From Mytilus trossulus (taxonomy: Eukaryota): a stretch of DNA of 64,000 nt. The stretch spans positions 10,405,347-10,469,346 of the forward strand of contig NC_086380.1 in assembly GCF_036588685.1 (NCBI RefSeq), written 5' to 3'. Under the pieces are notes generated by a model, which worked only from the letters and a program-made list of their open reading frames with translations, ran no database searches and was not told the origin of the DNA. Shown here piece after piece: positions 461-4,181 of this stretch. Position numbers and translations under genes: made by a program. Numbering within the stretch: the stretch's first letter is position 1; every line of letters begins with the position of its first letter.

Positions 461-635
461 TTGTATGTGAAAACTCTGACTGGTAAAACTATAGGAGGAG
501 TAAAACTACTGGCCTCTGATACAATAGAACAAGTCAAGGCCAAGATACAAGAATTAGAAGGGATCCCAATAGATCAACAGAGATTGGTTTTTGATGGGAA
601 ACAGCTAGAGGATGGTCGTACATTAGAGGATTACA
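461..635 (+). CDS. Exon 1 of a ubiquitin-like fusion gene. It encodes the N-terminal three quarters of a ubiquitin fold ([13 protein letters not shown]...[20 protein letters not shown]). The donor GTAAGT is at 636.
   Basis: The translation aligns with ubiquitin residues 1-59 ([40 protein letters not shown]). The canonical GTAAGT donor leaves phase 1, and this matches the acceptor of the next exon. Confidence 0.75.
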
Positions 636-989
636 GTAAGTTAACAATATATTTTCTACAAATATTACTGTGGATTCATTATAGTTCATCAGACACAATT
701 TTTTGTGGATTTCTTTATCACCTGGGAACCACTATAAATTCCAATGTTTAACAAATTTCAAAATTTCCATAGAAATATAAGCAGACTTTGGAAAAAAACA
801 CAATTTCAAATATCTACGAAATGCAAGTTTTCTTCAATCCACAAAAATAAATGATTCCACAGTATGTTTTTATTTTCAGGTATTATAGAAAAATTATTTT
901 TAAGTTTCTATTGGTTAAAACTATATTTAGGGTAAAGGAGCAGAGGGGTATGTAACAATAGACAATTTCTAATTTCCATTTAAGAATTG

Positions 990-1135
990 AATGCTTCTTT
1001 TTGTAAATTTATTGGGGTGTAAAAGCGTTGACCGAAGTACATTTTGTATGAAGCACAGAAGCACTTCATTCTAAAAATGTATGCAGGGTCAACGCTTTTA
1101 CAACCCAAGAAAGTTACGAAAAGAAGCATTCAATA
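990..1135. mobile_element. MITE-like palindromic element (long hairpin).
   Basis: gaatgcttctttt...gggtgtaaaagcgttgacc at 1000-1035 is the reverse complement of ggtcaacgcttttacaaccc...aaaagaagcattc at 1086-1130. Confidence 0.6.
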
Positions 1136-2304
1136 CTTATAATTACATTTTTTTAGCTAGGATCATGAAAACACGATTTTTATCAAGTTTTGTTTAATTC
1201 ACCTGTGCACTTTATTGTTGAACCTCATGTCATCACGAATGATAAATGTTATTGTCTGATGCAATTGCTTACAGAATAACATGTGATGTGCAGTTAGCCA
1301 ATCAGAATAACGTATTATAATGAAACATACATCTAATGTAATTATTTATAAATAAACTGCCCTGTCAAACTTGGAAAACTATGGGAGAAAACATGGCATA
1401 GGGCATTGTGAAATGAAGGTATTTGCTATTTGATGTCATTTTTTTCTGAACAATAAAAATTAGAATGGAAATGAGGAATGTGTTAAAGTGACAAAAAGCC
1501 CCTAAAAAAGGGCAGAAAACAGTCCAAAAAGAAAACAATCATACATGACCATAAAGAAAACTTGTAGATATGACAATAGTTAATTACGGTCAAAGTTAAT
1601 TTTCTCTGTTATATTTCCTTTCATTTTATGATAAATTTTAAAGCTAGGCAATTTGCCTTATGGGTGTTGCCTGCGTGCTATATTTTGTCCCTAACTGATT
1701 CAACTACATCTGCTAAGTTGATAATTTATCAACAAAAAAATAAGATCTTGGCATTAGAACAAAGAAAAATGAGATAGTACAGCCATTCATATTGCCATAT
1801 TAAAATAGTCACAAGGTATCAATTATTGTCACAAAATTAGATGCGATTCAGATTTCATTCTAAATCTACAAAACATCTTCCATTGTATTGTGATGTCATG
1901 AGAAAAGGTGACCATGCCTGATGATGACACATCCTGATGATGACACATTATATTAAGTACACATTTTTCTACCATTCTTTGAAAAGGACAGATAAAAATC
2001 ATTAGAAATATAAATTTCACCACTATAATTCGTCTACTATGATATTTCTCCACTCTCAACAGTTAAATTTTAATTCTTTTAAAAGCTCTGCAAGCCTTGT
2101 GCTTTAAATATTCAAATGTTGCTGTCACTCGTGGAGAATTATTGTAAAACATTTGTTGCAGTGGTAGAATCTAATTATTTCCCTAGATGTTTAATTAGGG
2201 TTTTTGTTCGAAGTGTATGCTTGAAAACTTGCAACTACATGATTAATAACCAGAATAGGCTGTGTATTAGTCTTTGAGTAAGATAACGATTAATTTTATT
2301 ACAG

Positions 2305-4181
2305 GAATAACAAATGAAAGTTCAATTCACATGGTGTTACGTTTAAGAGGAGGACCTGATCCTTGTTCTACAACTTTTAAATCATCAGGATCAGAACCAC
2401 TTTCTTTGCCGGATCGGATTCAGGGGTTTATGGAAGAACAACAACAGTCCAATGTACAGCATGCGCAACAAATGTCTATTGTACAGAATGCACAACAACA
2501 GTCTAATGTACAGGATGCGCAACAACAGTCCAATGTACAGAATATGTTTCAGCGTGCACAACAACAGCATGCACAACAACAGCAAATGATACAGCATGGG
2601 CAACAACAGCAAATGTTACAGCATGTGCAACAAAAGCAAATGTACAGCATGCCCTACACCAGCAAATGTTACATGGGCAACAACAGTCCAACATTAAAGC
2701 ATTTGCAACAACAGCAAATGTTACAACATGCGCAACAATCTCAAATGTTACAACATGCGCAACAACCTCAAATGATACAACCTGCGCAACAACCTCAAAT
2801 GTTACAACATGGGCAACAACCTCAAATGATACAACCTGTGCAACAACCTCAAATGTTACAACATGGGCAACAACCTCAAATGATACAACCTGCGCAACAA
2901 CCTCAAATGTTACAATATGGGCAACAACCTCAAATGTTACAACATGGGCAACAACCTCAAACGTTACAACCTGCACAACAACCTCAAATGTTACAACATG
3001 CCCAACAACCTCAAATGTTACTGCATTCAGGTGTTCAGGGACAACAAAGACAACAATCTGCAGATAGCATCAGGTTATCTAGTCCCTTTGCTGAACAGTC
3101 TTCATTCTATAATACCAAAGCTAGTTCCTCCACAATTGATGTTACACCACCAACCTTTCAGCAAACAGATCATTTGGGAGAAGAAACTTTGGGAAATGTT
3201 ACTTCTTTTGGAAGAATGACAACCAAACGAAGAAAAAGCAATGAAAGAAATCCTGTAGGTTTCCAGAGATATGAACCATTAAATCCAACAGGTTTCAGTT
3301 TTGGGAGAATGGGTACAGCAACTAATGAATTATTTGGTCAACAGTCAAGCAGTGTTAGTGCACCTGTTAGTGGTTTTAATGTTGATAGTCTGCAATCATA
3401 TGGGATGACTCCTAGCCTGGCAGAGACAATTCAAACTATATATTGTAGAGGTGGTGGTAGTCAAGTCGGCAGTGGATTTGGAAGTGGTTTCAGTTATGGA
3501 TTTCAGCAGCCACAGTTACAACCACCATCAATGGCGAGTTTTGGCTCAATTCAGTCCTCTAATGTGGCATATGGGGGCTTGTTTGGGAGTGAGCCAGTAA
3601 GTGTAAGAGCTGAGGGAAGTCCTGATACTAATGTGGCATACAGGGGCTTGTTTGGGAGTGAGCCAGTAAGTGTAAGAGCTAAGGGAAGTCCTGATACTAA
3701 TGTGGCATACGGGGGCTTGTTTGGGAGTGAGCCAGTAAGTGTAAGAGCTAAGGGAAGTCCTGATACTAATGTGGCATACGGGGGCTTGTTTGGGAGTGAG
3801 CCAGTAAGTGTAAGAGCCAAGGGAAGTCCTGATACTAATGTGGCATACGGGGGCTTGTTTGGGAGTGAGCCAGTAAGTGTAAGAGCTAAGGGAAGTCCTG
3901 ATACTAATGTGGCATACAGGGGCTTGTTTGGGAGTGAGCCAGTAAGTGTTAGAGCTGAGGGAAGTCCTGATACTAATGTGGCATACAGGGGCTTGTTTGG
4001 GAGTGAGCCAGTAAGTGTAAGAGCTAAGGGAAGTCCTGATACAGACCAAGATAAAGATGAAACAGCCCAGGATGTATTATCTCTCAGTACTGACATGCCA
4101 AGTGGTGGATTTAAATATAAAGAGGTAGACTATCTGGATACTGTGGATTTATTTATTTTCTTTGATACCAATATTCATTGA
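2305..4181 (+). CDS. Exon 2 of the ubiquitin-like fusion gene. It completes the ubiquitin fold (RITNESSIHMVLRLRGG) and continues straight into a Q-rich region (QQPQMLQHG repeats), a G/S/F-rich stretch and seven 23-aa repeats. The stop TGA is at 4179-4181.
   Basis: The acceptor ttttattacag is at 2294-2304. The phase-1 junction recreates ...LEDY-R-ITNESSIHMVLRLRGG, matching the ubiquitin C-terminus LHLVLRLRGG. A long uninterrupted ORF (2274..4181 in the supplied track) follows. An AATAAA-like signal lies downstream. Confidence 0.75.
2700..3030 (+). repeat. Coding tandem repeat of a 27-nt unit (caacaacctcaaatgttacaacatggg = QQPQMLQHG), about 12 copies.
   Basis: The periodicity is directly visible in both the sequence and the translation. 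Confidence 0.85.
3551..4040 (+). repeat. Coding tandem repeat with a 69-nt unit, 7 copies, near-identical at the DNA level (NVAYGGLFGSEPVSVRAKGSPDT).
   Basis: Seven consecutive near-identical 69-nt units. They differ only at A/R/E and K positions of the encoded peptide. Confidence 0.9.

What the first reader, a model, noticed from the sequence alone, without database searches (positions are those of the whole stretch)
461..4181. A ubiquitin-like domain ending in LRLRGG fused directly to a Q-rich, tandem-repeat cargo protein (a ubiquitin-fusion precursor architecture)
Across one intron the product is a 76-residue ubiquitin homolog, about 60 percent identical to ubiquitin by eye, with a preserved C-terminal LRLRGG. 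The next residue is proline (RGG-P), a context known to resist most ubiquitin C-terminal hydrolases. The chain then continues into about 560 residues of low-complexity sequence: QQPQMLQHG nonamers, a GSGFGSGFSYGF patch, and seven near-identical 23-mers NVAYGGLFGSEPVSVRAKGSPDT. Natural ubiquitin fusions (UBA52, RPS27A, FUBI-S30) use the GG junction for co-translational cleavage. Here the cargo is a repeat protein reminiscent of structural or matrix proteins, and the GG-Pro junction may keep the ubiquitin fold attached. Neither arrangement is a described family that I recognise.
Basis: partly seen in the sequence, partly recalled or inferred. Interest (0 to 1): 0.75.

Follow-up and report, generated by a model that had tools for sequence, protein, structure and literature searches.

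The report
Ubiquitin-like domain inside mussel vault-PARP gene
The ubiquitin-like domain and its repeat-rich "cargo" are real, but they are internal exons of the 3' half of a mussel PARP4 (vault PARP) gene rather than a stand-alone ubiquitin-fusion precursor, so this is an unusual variant of a known enzyme, not a new protein family.

Summary
These are a ubiquitin-like domain (UBL) split by one intron (Pfam ubiquitin E=8e-23, 53/76 identical to ubiquitin), LRLRGG followed by Pro, about 22 Q-rich nonamers, and seven 69-bp repeats.

The gene model is truncated at both ends:
- The UBL exon starts at a splice acceptor (450). It has no in-frame ATG, and an in-frame stop lies just upstream.
- The ORF end at 4181 is intron read-through. 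The exon ends at 4124, and at least four more conserved exons follow.

The only homologue of the cargo among 1.84 billion representatives is a Mytilus coruscus protein. That protein carries about 290 residues upstream of the UBL that match human PARP4 1123-1214 (E=1e-23). In the M. coruscus genome it sits directly downstream, on the same strand, of a gene model with BRCT, PARP, VIT and VWA domains.

A more distant genome has the same UBL exon pair after its PARP4 exons, with the same intron phase. There the domain ends in RFDEG-P, so the GG motif is not conserved.

The cargo evolves almost neutrally (dN/dS 0.81), and its repeats are lineage-specific minisatellite expansions.

Best reading: an integral, uncleaved UBL in the disordered C-terminal region of mussel PARP4. 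Interest is moderate.

The parts
1..449 (+). 3' end of the intron that precedes the UBL exon. The upstream PARP4 exons lie beyond the left edge of the window.
   Evidence: Window 129-667 aligns with M. coruscus L001 19447-19944, which is intron plus the UBL exon. An in-frame TGA lies at 434-436, followed by a polypyrimidine tract and AG at 448-449.
450..635 (+). Internal exon A. It starts with 2 nt that complete a codon begun in the previous exon, then encodes IRS plus UBL residues up to Tyr59. It ends with 1 nt of the next codon.
   Evidence: It is 92% identical at the protein level to M. coruscus exon L001 19723-19911. The acceptor and donor are conserved in both species. Species X has the same intron phase.
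636..2304 (+). Intron that splits the UBL after Tyr59 (phase 1). It contains a MITE-like palindrome at 981-1139.
   Evidence: GT at 636-637 and AG at 2303-2304. Inverted repeat of 53-nt arms, 91% complementary.
2305..2354 (+). Start of exon B: the last 17 residues of the UBL (R-ITNESSIHMVLRLRGG).
   Evidence: 15/16 identical to M. coruscus.
2355..2432 (+). Gly-Gly|Pro junction and linker (PDPCSTTFKSSGSEPLSLPDRIQGFM).
   Evidence: CCT at 2355-2357. RGGPDP is conserved in M. coruscus. Species X also has G-P here, but as RFDEG-PP.
2433..3026 (+). Q-rich array of about 22 units of 27 bp (the QQPQMLQHG type). It contains a compensated -1/+1 frameshift at about 2644-2700.
   Evidence: TRF. Row-by-row view in three frames. 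There is no such array in M. coruscus.
3027..3560 (+). Non-repetitive middle part of exon B, with conserved FG-type motifs (TGFSFG, ELFGQQ, GSGFGSGFSYGF).
   Evidence: 62% identical to M. coruscus, all gaps in frame, dN/dS 0.91.
3561..4043 (+). Seven tandem 69-bp units encoding NVAY[GR]GLFGSEPVSVRA[KE]GSPDT.
   Evidence: TRF reports 7.0 copies, 97% matches. Copies listed. Single copy in M. coruscus.
4044..4124 (+). End of exon B (DQDKDETAQDVLSLSTDMPSGGFKYKE).
   Evidence: Conserved with M. coruscus. The donor GAG|GTAGAC is identical in both species.
4125..4181 (+).
   Evidence: Homology to M. coruscus stops at 4124 and resumes in the downstream exons.
5311..5442 (+). Cassette exon X (phase 0-0), a look-alike of the histone H3 N-terminal tail: [27 protein letters not shown]...
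   Evidence: It is present only in M. coruscus isoform P0004. tblastn hits. Splice sites are conserved. dN/dS is 1.45.
6821..6967 (+). Exon C (phase 0-0), which contains DRYGPRKSAPIVED.
   Evidence: dN/dS 0.27.
7538..7642 (+). Cassette exon D (phase 0-0): EEDFKHKKLTNAQRCEINLSNDELAMWWSPTLQSK. It resembles part of the Prp8 U6-snRNA-binding region.
   Evidence: Pfam PF10596 E=8e-6, below the gathering score. PDB Prp8 chains E=9e-5 to 3e-4. It is skipped in isoform P0003. The exon and its flanks are 93.6% identical in DNA between species.
9981..10082 (+). Exon E (phase 0-0): DIYKSPGFSFNTAGLSKGGSAPSITKPTSAILDL.
   Evidence: dN/dS 0.40.
12329..17650 (+). Retroelement insertion (RT, RNase H and further ORFs). 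It lies where M. coruscus has its last two annotated exons.
   Evidence: Pfam RVT_1 E=1e-18. ORFs. No window counterpart was found for L001 39501-39587 or 45111-45260.

Best explanation
Window 450-10082 holds internal and 3' exons of a mussel (Mytilus) orthologue of PARP4, the vault poly(ADP-ribose) polymerase. The body of the gene (BRCT, PARP catalytic, VIT, vWA) lies to the left of the window.

After the conserved post-vWA segment, the mussel protein carries an integral ubiquitin-like domain. The domain is encoded by two exons split at Tyr59. It is followed by a long, intrinsically disordered C-terminal region.

In Mytilus the UBL is still about 70% identical to ubiquitin:
- Retained: K6, K11, K27, K29, K48, L8, H68, V70 and LRLRGG.
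- Changed: I44V, K33L and K63N.

Because the next residue is Pro and the domain is internal, it is most likely not cleaved off. I infer that it works as a built-in ubiquitin signal. That could mean a docking surface for ubiquitin-binding partners or proteasome receptors, or a UFD-type degron extended on K29/K48.

The so-called cargo is not a discrete cargo protein. It is fast-evolving disordered sequence. Its nonamer and 23-mer repeats arose by recent minisatellite expansion.

Shown: the anatomy, the PARP4 identity, the internal position of the UBL, the conservation pattern, and the lineage-specific origin of the repeats. Inferred: non-cleavage and the signalling role.
For: Internal position:
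- There is no in-frame ATG. A stop lies at 434-436 and the acceptor is at 448-449.
- The donor after KYKE and four downstream exons are conserved with M. coruscus, with the same splice sites.

PARP4 identity:
- The M. coruscus homologue P0001 matches human PARP4 1123-1214 at E=1.1e-23 just upstream of its UBL.
- In locus L001 the adjacent same-strand model carries BRCT, PARP, VIT and VWA.
- The two models meet inside a 96-bp tandem array of one PARP4 exon.
- The window is colinear with L001.

UBL as an old integral domain:
- Loci L002-L004, from another genome, have the same PARP4 exons followed 6-8.5 kb downstream by a PF00240 ORF.
- That UBL has the same exon phases and the same intron after ...KKY.
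- It ends in MLRFDEG|PP, so it has no GG.

Constraint:
- UBL: dN 0.035, dN/dS 0.42.
- Rest of exon B: dN 0.166, dN/dS 0.81.
- All indels are in frame, and one frameshift is compensated.

Disorder and orphan status:
- Only P0001 is found among 1.84 billion representatives.
- Composition is 61% disorder-promoting residues, and there is no hydrophobic segment.
- AF2 gives no secondary structure in this region, which is weak evidence because it was a single-sequence run.

UFD background: an uncleavable ubiquitin moiety targets fusions for degradation, and Ub-Pro-beta-gal is a classic substrate (PMC3507821, PMC3791797).
Against: - No transcript or protein data exist for the window species. Exon connectivity rests on the M. 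coruscus annotation (three isoforms of unknown evidence type) and on conservation.
- M. coruscus annotates the PARP body and the UBL part as two genes.
- The MVP-interacting (MINT) domain of human PARP4 was not detected in any exon available here.
- The UBL dN/dS rests on only 10 substitutions.
- The near-native LRLRGG in Mytilus is exactly what a processing site would look like. UFD work concerns N-terminal ubiquitin, not internal ubiquitin.
- Near-neutral evolution of exon B, TE insertions and the missing terminal exons would also fit a decaying gene end.
Confidence: 0.62

Rival explanations
1. Processing site. The internal ubiquitin is cut after Gly-Gly by a deubiquitinase. This splits the protein into PARP4-ubiquitin, with a free and possibly conjugatable GG end, and a separate disordered C-terminal fragment.
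For: - LRLRGG, R72 and R74 are intact in both Mytilus species.
- The Mytilus UBL is far closer to ubiquitin than the species-X orthologue is: 53/76 against 27/77 identical.
Against: - Pro at P1' is conserved in both Mytilus species and in species X. Ub-Pro junctions are classic poorly cleaved UFD substrates (established knowledge, Bachmair et al. 1986, Johnson et al. 1995).
- Species X lacks GG (RFDEG), so cleavage is not a conserved property of this domain.
Confidence: 0.1
2. This is a stand-alone gene whose product starts with ubiquitin and continues into a repeat cargo, that is, a new type of ubiquitin-fusion precursor.
For: The UBL-GG-cargo order is real. The M. coruscus annotation does not join this part to the PARP body.
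Against: - There is no in-frame ATG. The first in-frame Met lies inside the last UBL strand, and an upstream in-frame stop is followed by a canonical acceptor.
- The M. coruscus models all have about 290 residues of PARP4-homologous sequence before the UBL.
- The ORF end at 4181 is intron.
Confidence: 0.03
3. Decaying or non-functional gene tail. The UBL, cargo and cassette exons are exonised fragments (ubiquitin, H3 and Prp8 pieces plus minisatellites). They are tolerated at the end of PARP4 and have no function of their own, or are rarely included in mRNA.
For: - dN/dS is 0.81 for exon B and 1.45 for the H3-like exon.
- Exon B carries a compensated frameshift.
- Repeat copy number differs between species.
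- Retroelements sit in the introns, and counterparts of the last two M. coruscus exons are absent.
- The annotated M. coruscus stop arises from a frameshift in one of two duplicated copies.
Against: - A 606-codon exon stays open in two species at dS of about 0.2, with only in-frame indels.
- Splice sites are conserved.
- The UBL has 5-fold lower dN than its surroundings. It is retained with the same exon structure in a distant genome.
Confidence: 0.17
4. Two genes. A separate UBL-containing gene arose from a partial duplication of the PARP4 3' region and lies just downstream of the true PARP4.
For: M. coruscus has two gene models. The LHQL exon is multiplied about 25-fold between them.
Against: - Only one copy of each post-LHQL PARP4 exon exists in L001. 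These copies are the ones in the UBL model, so the upstream model would lack its own C-terminal part.
- In species X, haplotype L002 has a single LHQL exon followed by the same exons and the UBL.
Confidence: 0.08

Closest known systems
Human PARP4 / vault PARP (vPARP; UniProt Q9UKK3; PDB 9bw6, 9bw7, 11jf)
   Same: - The segment just before the M. coruscus UBL matches PARP4 1123-1214 (E=1e-23, about 55% identical).
- The neighbouring upstream model has the combination BRCT + PARP + VIT + vWA, which is diagnostic for the vPARP clade (PMC2964712).
- As in human PARP4, a long disordered region follows the vWA part (PMC12280208).
   Different: - No UBL is described in human PARP4 or in the clade survey.
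- The helical MINT domain that anchors PARP4 in the vault was not detected in the mussel exons available.
- The mussel tail carries Q-rich and FG-type repeats and H3-like and Prp8-like cassette exons.
Ubiquitin and its natural precursors (polyubiquitin, UBA52, RPS27A)
   Same: - 53/76 identity to ubiquitin.
- LRLRGG is retained, along with K6, K11, K27, K29, K48 and the L8/V70/H68 patch.
   Different: - The domain is internal, with no initiator Met.
- GG is followed by Pro.
- The downstream partner is 750+ residues of disordered sequence, not a ribosomal protein or another ubiquitin.
- K33 and K63 are lost, I44 is Val, and there is a one-residue insertion in the window copy.
Integral UBL-domain proteins (type-2 UBLs such as Rad23, ubiquilin, parkin, BAG6, internal UBLs of USPs)
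   Same: A ubiquitin fold that is a permanent part of a larger protein and is used as an interaction module. The species-X orthologue, which has no GG and is 35% identical to ubiquitin, looks like a typical member.
   Different: These families are unrelated in the rest of the protein. Their UBLs normally lack LRLRGG and are much less ubiquitin-like than the Mytilus copy.
Ubiquitin-fusion-degradation substrates (Ub-Pro-beta-gal, UbG76V fusions, UBB+1)
   Same: An uncleavable ubiquitin moiety joined through its C-terminus to a polypeptide. K29 and K48, the UFD chain sites, are present.
   Different: UFD substrates carry ubiquitin at the N-terminus and are artificial or aberrant. Here the ubiquitin is internal and genomically encoded in a conserved gene.
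FG-nucleoporin-like and Q-rich prion-like disordered regions
   Same: - There are 12 FG dipeptides after the UBL, including GLFG and FSFG types.
- Most FG motifs are conserved between species while the spacers diverge.
- Q content is high in the 27-bp array.
   Different: There is no sequence homology to any nucleoporin. Seven of the FG motifs are one recently amplified unit. No function was tested.

Membership tests
Ubiquitin family (Pfam PF00240) | Sequence match to the ubiquitin beta-grasp profile above the gathering score | tested here: met
   80.4 bits against a cut-off of 25.4, E=7.9e-23, profile positions 1-72/72. 53/76 identical to ubiquitin.
Ubiquitin family (Pfam PF00240) | C-terminal LRLRGG / di-glycine | tested here: met
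   Present in the window and in M. coruscus. Absent (RFDEG) in the species-X orthologue.
Ubiquitin-fusion precursors (polyUb, UBA52, RPS27A, FUBI-S30) | Ubiquitin or UBL at the N-terminus, starting with the initiator Met | tested here: not met
   There is no in-frame ATG. A stop lies at 434-436 and an acceptor at 448-449. The orthologue has about 290 residues upstream.
Ubiquitin-fusion precursors (polyUb, UBA52, RPS27A, FUBI-S30) | GG followed by a residue that permits deubiquitinase cleavage | tested here: not met
   GG-Pro in both Mytilus species. Actual cleavage cannot be tested with these tools.
Ubiquitin-fusion precursors (polyUb, UBA52, RPS27A, FUBI-S30) | Partner is a ribosomal protein or further ubiquitin units | tested here: not met
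   No Pfam domain beyond the UBL. The only homologue of the partner is the M. coruscus orthologue.
PARP4 / vPARP clade | PARP catalytic domain followed by VIT and vWA domains in the same gene | tested here: inconclusive
   Not visible in the window, which starts in the intron before the UBL exon. In the colinear M. coruscus locus the adjacent same-strand model has BRCT, PARP, VIT and VWA and abuts the UBL model inside a tandem exon array. No cDNA joins them.
PARP4 / vPARP clade | Homology of the post-vWA segment (human 1123-1214) | tested here: met
   The M. coruscus orthologue scores E=1.1e-23 against PARP4 chain 11jf_P. The profile search returns a PARP4-like protein.
PARP4 / vPARP clade | C-terminal MVP-interacting (MINT) domain and residence in vaults | tested here: inconclusive
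   No match to PARP4 1562-1724 in any downstream exon or ORF searched by sequence. The 3' end of the gene is unresolved. Vault association cannot be tested here.
Secreted shell-matrix / byssal repeat proteins | Signal peptide and homology or shared motifs with known matrix or byssal proteins | tested here: not met
   The exon is internal to an intracellular enzyme gene. The maximum 19-residue hydropathy is 0.67, and that window lies in the UBL. No homologue other than P0001 exists in 1.84 billion representatives.

The most novel reading that the evidence does not exclude
Mussel vault-PARP has recruited near-native copies of classic modification substrates into its disordered tail. These are:
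- a ubiquitin with intact K29, K48 and GG;
- a histone-H3-tail look-alike (ARKSTGGK...) as a cassette exon;
- an RKSAP motif;
- a Prp8-derived cassette exon.

Further downstream, possibly in the same gene, lie an H3 alpha-N piece, Pol II CTD-like heptads and an RS domain.

In this reading these act as built-in pseudo-substrates or decoys. They could be automodification sites for the ADP-ribosyltransferase, or baits that bring ubiquitin and histone readers or writers into the vault. Alternatively, the ubiquitin is released with PARP4 attached to it and is conjugated to targets.
Probability: 0.1. Interest if true: 0.7.

Novelty: new variant of a known kind. Interest (0 to 1): 0.4.

Why it matters
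PARP4 is the only enzyme known inside vault particles, and its function is still unclear. A lineage in which this enzyme carries an almost native ubiquitin, fixed in place by a Gly-Gly-Pro junction, offers a natural experiment on links between ADP-ribosylation, ubiquitin signalling and vaults. It is also a rare natural example of an internal, apparently uncleavable ubiquitin. For genome annotation, the locus shows how an exon-level tandem array splits one gene into two models. It also shows how a truncated reading of a window can make an ordinary domain insertion look like a new precursor family.

Tried and rejected
- Cargo homologue searches: the first word-index search with the Q-rich region was saturated at 8000 candidates and gave only P0001. 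A full HMMER scan with the non-repetitive cargo plus exons C-E again gave only P0001. I therefore rejected links to shell-matrix, byssal or prion protein families.
- A search with the pre-UBL segment alone returned one fragment. A three-sequence profile returned 52 hits. Most are short ORF fragments without domain annotation, so the taxonomic spread of the UBL could not be read from that table. I used those fragments as handles to fetch loci instead.
- An exact look-up of P0001 failed. The longest isoform, P0004, worked.
- Exact look-ups of four window ORF products found nothing, so the window genome itself is not in the collection and its upstream exons could not be fetched.
AF2 on P0001 without an alignment was poor (mean pLDDT 39). 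I used it only as weak support for disorder.
- No counterpart of the last two M. coruscus exons was found in the window, even with word size 2.
- The MINT domain was sought by sequence in all downstream exons and ORFs and was not found.
- I considered NEDD8 as the source. The window UBL is 36/76 identical to NEDD8 against 53/76 to ubiquitin.
- Literature searches for PARP4 together with a ubiquitin-like domain or with molluscs found no description of this architecture.

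
Full report
**Observation**

The features described are in the sequence.
- Joining 635 to 2305 (donor A|GTAAGT, acceptor ttacag|GA) gives [75 protein letters not shown].
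- Pfam scores this as ubiquitin at E=7.9e-23, 80.4 bits against a cut-off of 25.4.
- It is 53/76 identical to ubiquitin, with one inserted residue, and only 36/76 identical to NEDD8.
- K6, K11, K27, K29, K48, L8, H68, V70 and LRLRGG are kept. I44 is Val, K33 is Leu and K63 is Asn.
- The codon after GG is CCT, Pro (2355-2357).
- Downstream there is a 27-bp tandem array (TRF 2439-3021), about 22 Q-rich nonamers.
- The GSGFGSGFSYGF patch is present.
- There are exactly seven 69-bp units at 3561-4043, 97% matching.

**Gene model**

- Position 461 is a TTG inside an exon.
- In frame upstream there is a TGA at 434-436, then a T-rich tract and AG at 448-449. The exon therefore starts at 450 with two bases that complete a codon from an earlier exon.
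- No in-frame ATG precedes the UBL. The first in-frame Met is inside its last strand.
- At the other end, homology to the only relative stops at ...GGFKYKE (4124). That point is followed by GTAGAC, and the same donor is present in M. coruscus.
- The 19 codons up to 4181 are intron read-through.
- Further exons follow, all phase 0-0 and all with splice sites conserved between the two species: 5311-5442, 6821-6967, 7538-7642 and 9981-10082.

**What the gene is**

A search of 5.8 billion clusters with the cargo, and a full HMMER scan of 1.84 billion representatives with its non-repetitive parts, each found one protein. This is P0001, CAC5400317 of Mytilus coruscus, an unnamed 'ubiquitin-like domain-containing protein'.

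P0001 has about 290 residues before its UBL. The segment MLHQLTARAVIRDYEDG...IVTPYTSFIAVEE...VDVLPYMDWQ matches human PARP4 residues 1123-1214 at E=1.1e-23. In human PARP4 that segment follows the vWA domain.

The M. coruscus locus (L001) shows the following:
- Directly upstream on the same strand there is a 1450-residue model with BRCT, PARP, VIT and VWA hits. This combination defines the vPARP clade (PMC2964712).
- That model ends, and the UBL model begins, inside a tandem array of about 25 copies of a 96-bp unit. The unit consists of the LHQLTARAVIRDYEDG exon plus a mini-intron.
- Only one copy of each later PARP4 exon exists, and these copies are in the UBL model.

I conclude that the two models are one PARP4 gene split by the array. 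The window is colinear with L001 from the intron before the UBL exon onward. Identity is 75-82% in introns and 90-94% around the conserved exons. The window therefore begins inside this gene.

**Age and nature of the UBL**

I used short ORF fragments from a profile search as handles and fetched PARP4 loci from other assemblies.
- L002-L004 (ENA ERZ25069865 and ERZ25073814) are three haplotypes or copies from one unidentified organism. They are not alignable with Mytilus outside the exons.
- They have the same exons (LHQL, IVTPYTSF, QDPVVAI...). An ORF flagged PF00240 lies 6-8.5 kb further on.
- Its exon begins with two bases completing a codon and ends one base after ...LKKY. The next exon gives G-DSSGLTFHMMLRFDEG|PPGT. 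The intron position and phases therefore match those in Mytilus.
- This copy is only 27/77 identical to ubiquitin, and equally distant from the window UBL. It has no Gly-Gly, but Pro still follows.

The UBL is therefore an older, integral part of this PARP4 lineage. The intact LRLRGG is a Mytilus peculiarity, not a conserved processing site.

A fourth organism (L007, L008) has no UBL within 10 kb. It has a 14-3-3-like ORF there instead.

**Constraint**

These are Nei-Gojobori estimates, window against M. coruscus:

| Region | dN | dS | dN/dS |
|---|---|---|---|
| UBL | 0.035 | 0.084 | 0.42 |
| Rest of exon B | 0.166 | 0.206 | 0.81 |
| Exon X (H3-like) | | | 1.45 |
| Exon C | | | 0.27 |
| Exon D | | | 0 synonymous and 4 non-synonymous changes |
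| Exon E | | | 0.40 |

- The UBL estimate rests on 6 non-synonymous and 4 synonymous changes.
- Exon B is almost unconstrained in sequence. It still stays open for 606 codons in both species, and every indel is in frame.
- A -1 shift at about 2644 is restored by a +1 shift at about 2697. This turns two nonamers into YSMPYTSKCYMGNNSPTLKH.
- The 23-mer is single-copy in M. coruscus, and the nonamer array is absent there. The repeats are therefore recent minisatellite expansions, not a designed structural repeat.
- Composition is 61% disorder-promoting residues. There is no hydrophobic segment, so there is no signal peptide.
- A low-confidence AF2 model shows no secondary structure in this region.
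- What is conserved within exon B is mainly short FG-type motifs (TGFSFG, ELFGQQ, GFS[YF]GFQQ, GGLFGSEP).

**Mechanism**

Shown: an internal ubiquitin fold in a PARP4 orthologue, followed by a fast-evolving disordered tail.

Inferred: the domain stays attached.
- Pro after Gly76 is the classic context that deubiquitinases cut poorly. Ub-Pro-beta-gal is a standard UFD substrate.
- An uncleavable ubiquitin moiety is a degradation signal handled by TRIP12 and HUWE1 (PMC3507821).
- The species-X orthologue has lost GG altogether.

The likeliest role is a built-in ubiquitin signal. That could be docking to ubiquitin receptors or a K29/K48-extended degron. Human PARP4 has long disordered linkers between its folded domains and a C-terminal MINT domain that anchors it in the vault (PMC12280208). 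I could not detect MINT in the mussel exons, and the true 3' end of the gene remains open.

**Rivals**

- Cleavage at GG, giving PARP4-Ub plus a free tail, is possible because LRLRGG is intact. The conserved Pro and species X argue against it.
- The stand-alone precursor model fails for lack of a start codon.
- A non-functional, decaying tail fits the near-neutral rates, the TE insertions and the missing terminal exons. It does not fit the open frame, the conserved splice sites or the retention of the UBL across lineages.
- A separate duplicated gene is unlikely, because the post-LHQL PARP4 exons are single-copy.

**Side observations**

The tail contains pieces that look borrowed from very conserved proteins.
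- Cassette exon X reads [24 protein letters not shown], against H3 [23 protein letters not shown].
- Exon C has PRKSAP.
- Cassette exon D reads EEDFKHKKLTNAQR...WWSPT, against Prp8 EESMKYKKLTNAQR...WWSPT. The PDB E-value is 9e-5, and the Pfam E-value is 8e-6, below the cut-off.
- M. coruscus ends its model in an H3-tail-like exon that is duplicated, with a frameshift in the annotated copy.
- Farther right in the window are an acidic exon, an exon 21/23 identical to H3 35-57, and a 652-codon ORF with Pol II CTD-like heptads and an RS domain.

Whether these belong to the same gene is unknown.

**Verdict**

The interpretation as a new ubiquitin-fusion precursor is not supported. This is a PARP4 orthologue with a lineage-specific integral UBL and a repeat-expanded disordered tail. 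It is a new variant of a known kind, not described in the literature I could search. Interest is moderate.

Noticed in passing
window 5311-5442: A cassette exon encodes a histone H3 N-terminal-tail look-alike: [27 protein letters not shown]. It matches H3 residues 3-30 at 17/28, including [10 protein letters not shown].Q. It is present only in M. coruscus isoform P0004 and evolves at dN/dS 1.45.
   Followed up: partly
window 7538-7642 (and possibly 9981-10082): A 35-codon cassette exon resembles Prp8 around human residues 1510-1545: EE..K.KKLTNAQR...N...WWSPT. The PDB E-value is 9e-5, and Pfam PF10596 gives E=8e-6, below the gathering score. It is skipped in isoform P0003. The exon plus its flanks are 93.6% identical in DNA between species, the best-conserved stretch of the locus.
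   Followed up: partly
window 18248-18475 and 18616-18725: An acidic exon (DSEDSSEEGSSDEDEDEEDD...) is followed by an exon encoding [26 protein letters not shown], which is 21/23 identical to histone H3 35-57. No histone fold follows. The splice phases fit a further exon at about 20.66-20.76 kb and the ORF at 21.5 kb. It is unclear whether this is the same gene as the UBL or the next one.
   Followed up: partly
window 21525-23483: A 652-codon open exon has a stretch resembling RNA polymerase II CTD heptads (YQPTSPAY, PSYSPTLPTY; PDB RPB1 E=1.3e-5, compositionally biased). It is followed by a long Arg/Ser-rich domain.
   Followed up: partly
window 2644-2700: There is a compensated frameshift inside the Q-rich array. 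One T is missing at about 2644 and one base is extra at about 2697, so about 18 codons are read in the wrong frame of the repeat (YSMPYTSKCYMGNNSPTLKH). This is either real, meaning selection for an open frame only, or a pair of assembly indels.
   Followed up: yes
L001 7981-10425; L003 6575-8598; L004 6431-8591; L002 7156-7248: The PARP4 exon encoding LHQL[TA]ARAVI.DYE.G, together with its splice sites and a mini-intron, is tandemly multiplied. There are about 25 copies of 96 bp in M. coruscus and 8-10 copies of about 127 bp in two haplotypes of species X, but a single copy in a third haplotype. The array splits the M. coruscus PARP4 annotation into two genes.
   Followed up: partly
L001 45111-45350 and 50841-51080: M. 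coruscus has a segmental duplication of about 5.7 kb that carries the last annotated exon. Copy 2 reads on into two H3-tail-like units (ARSGGKGSGKLVATKAARKSAPAIGGV, TKMTRRKMCSSVRTKAARKSAPATGGV). Copy 1 has a 1-base frameshift that creates the annotated stop (...ARSGAKVLEN*). No counterpart exists in the window.
   Followed up: partly
window 12329-17650; 7957-8946; 55247-57663: There are retroelement insertions. The first is a 5-kb element with RT and RNase H (RVT_1 E=1e-18) and terminal inverted repeats, sitting in the gene's 3' intron region. The second is a non-LTR RT tail fragment (zf-RVT) in the intron after exon D. A gag and RT fragment lies near 55-57 kb.
   Followed up: partly
window 981-1139 and 4577-4717: Two MITE-like palindromes lie in introns. 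One has 53-nt arms, 91% complementary, 53 nt apart. The other has 61-nt arms, 90% complementary, 19 nt apart.
   Followed up: no
window 27214-27582: An ORF matches the clathrin heavy-chain propeller repeat (PF01394 E=6.6e-6, above the cut-off). It is probably an exon of a clathrin heavy-chain-like gene downstream.
   Followed up: no
L007 11678-12811 (ENA ERZ24894577), also L008: In another organism's PARP4-like locus, the exon after ...VDKLTYMGWE is followed by a 377-codon ORF that, by eye, looks like a 14-3-3-like helical domain (...STLVMQQLRDNLQVWEE). No UBL is found within 10 kb. This suggests that different lineages attach different modules to the PARP4 tail.
   Followed up: no
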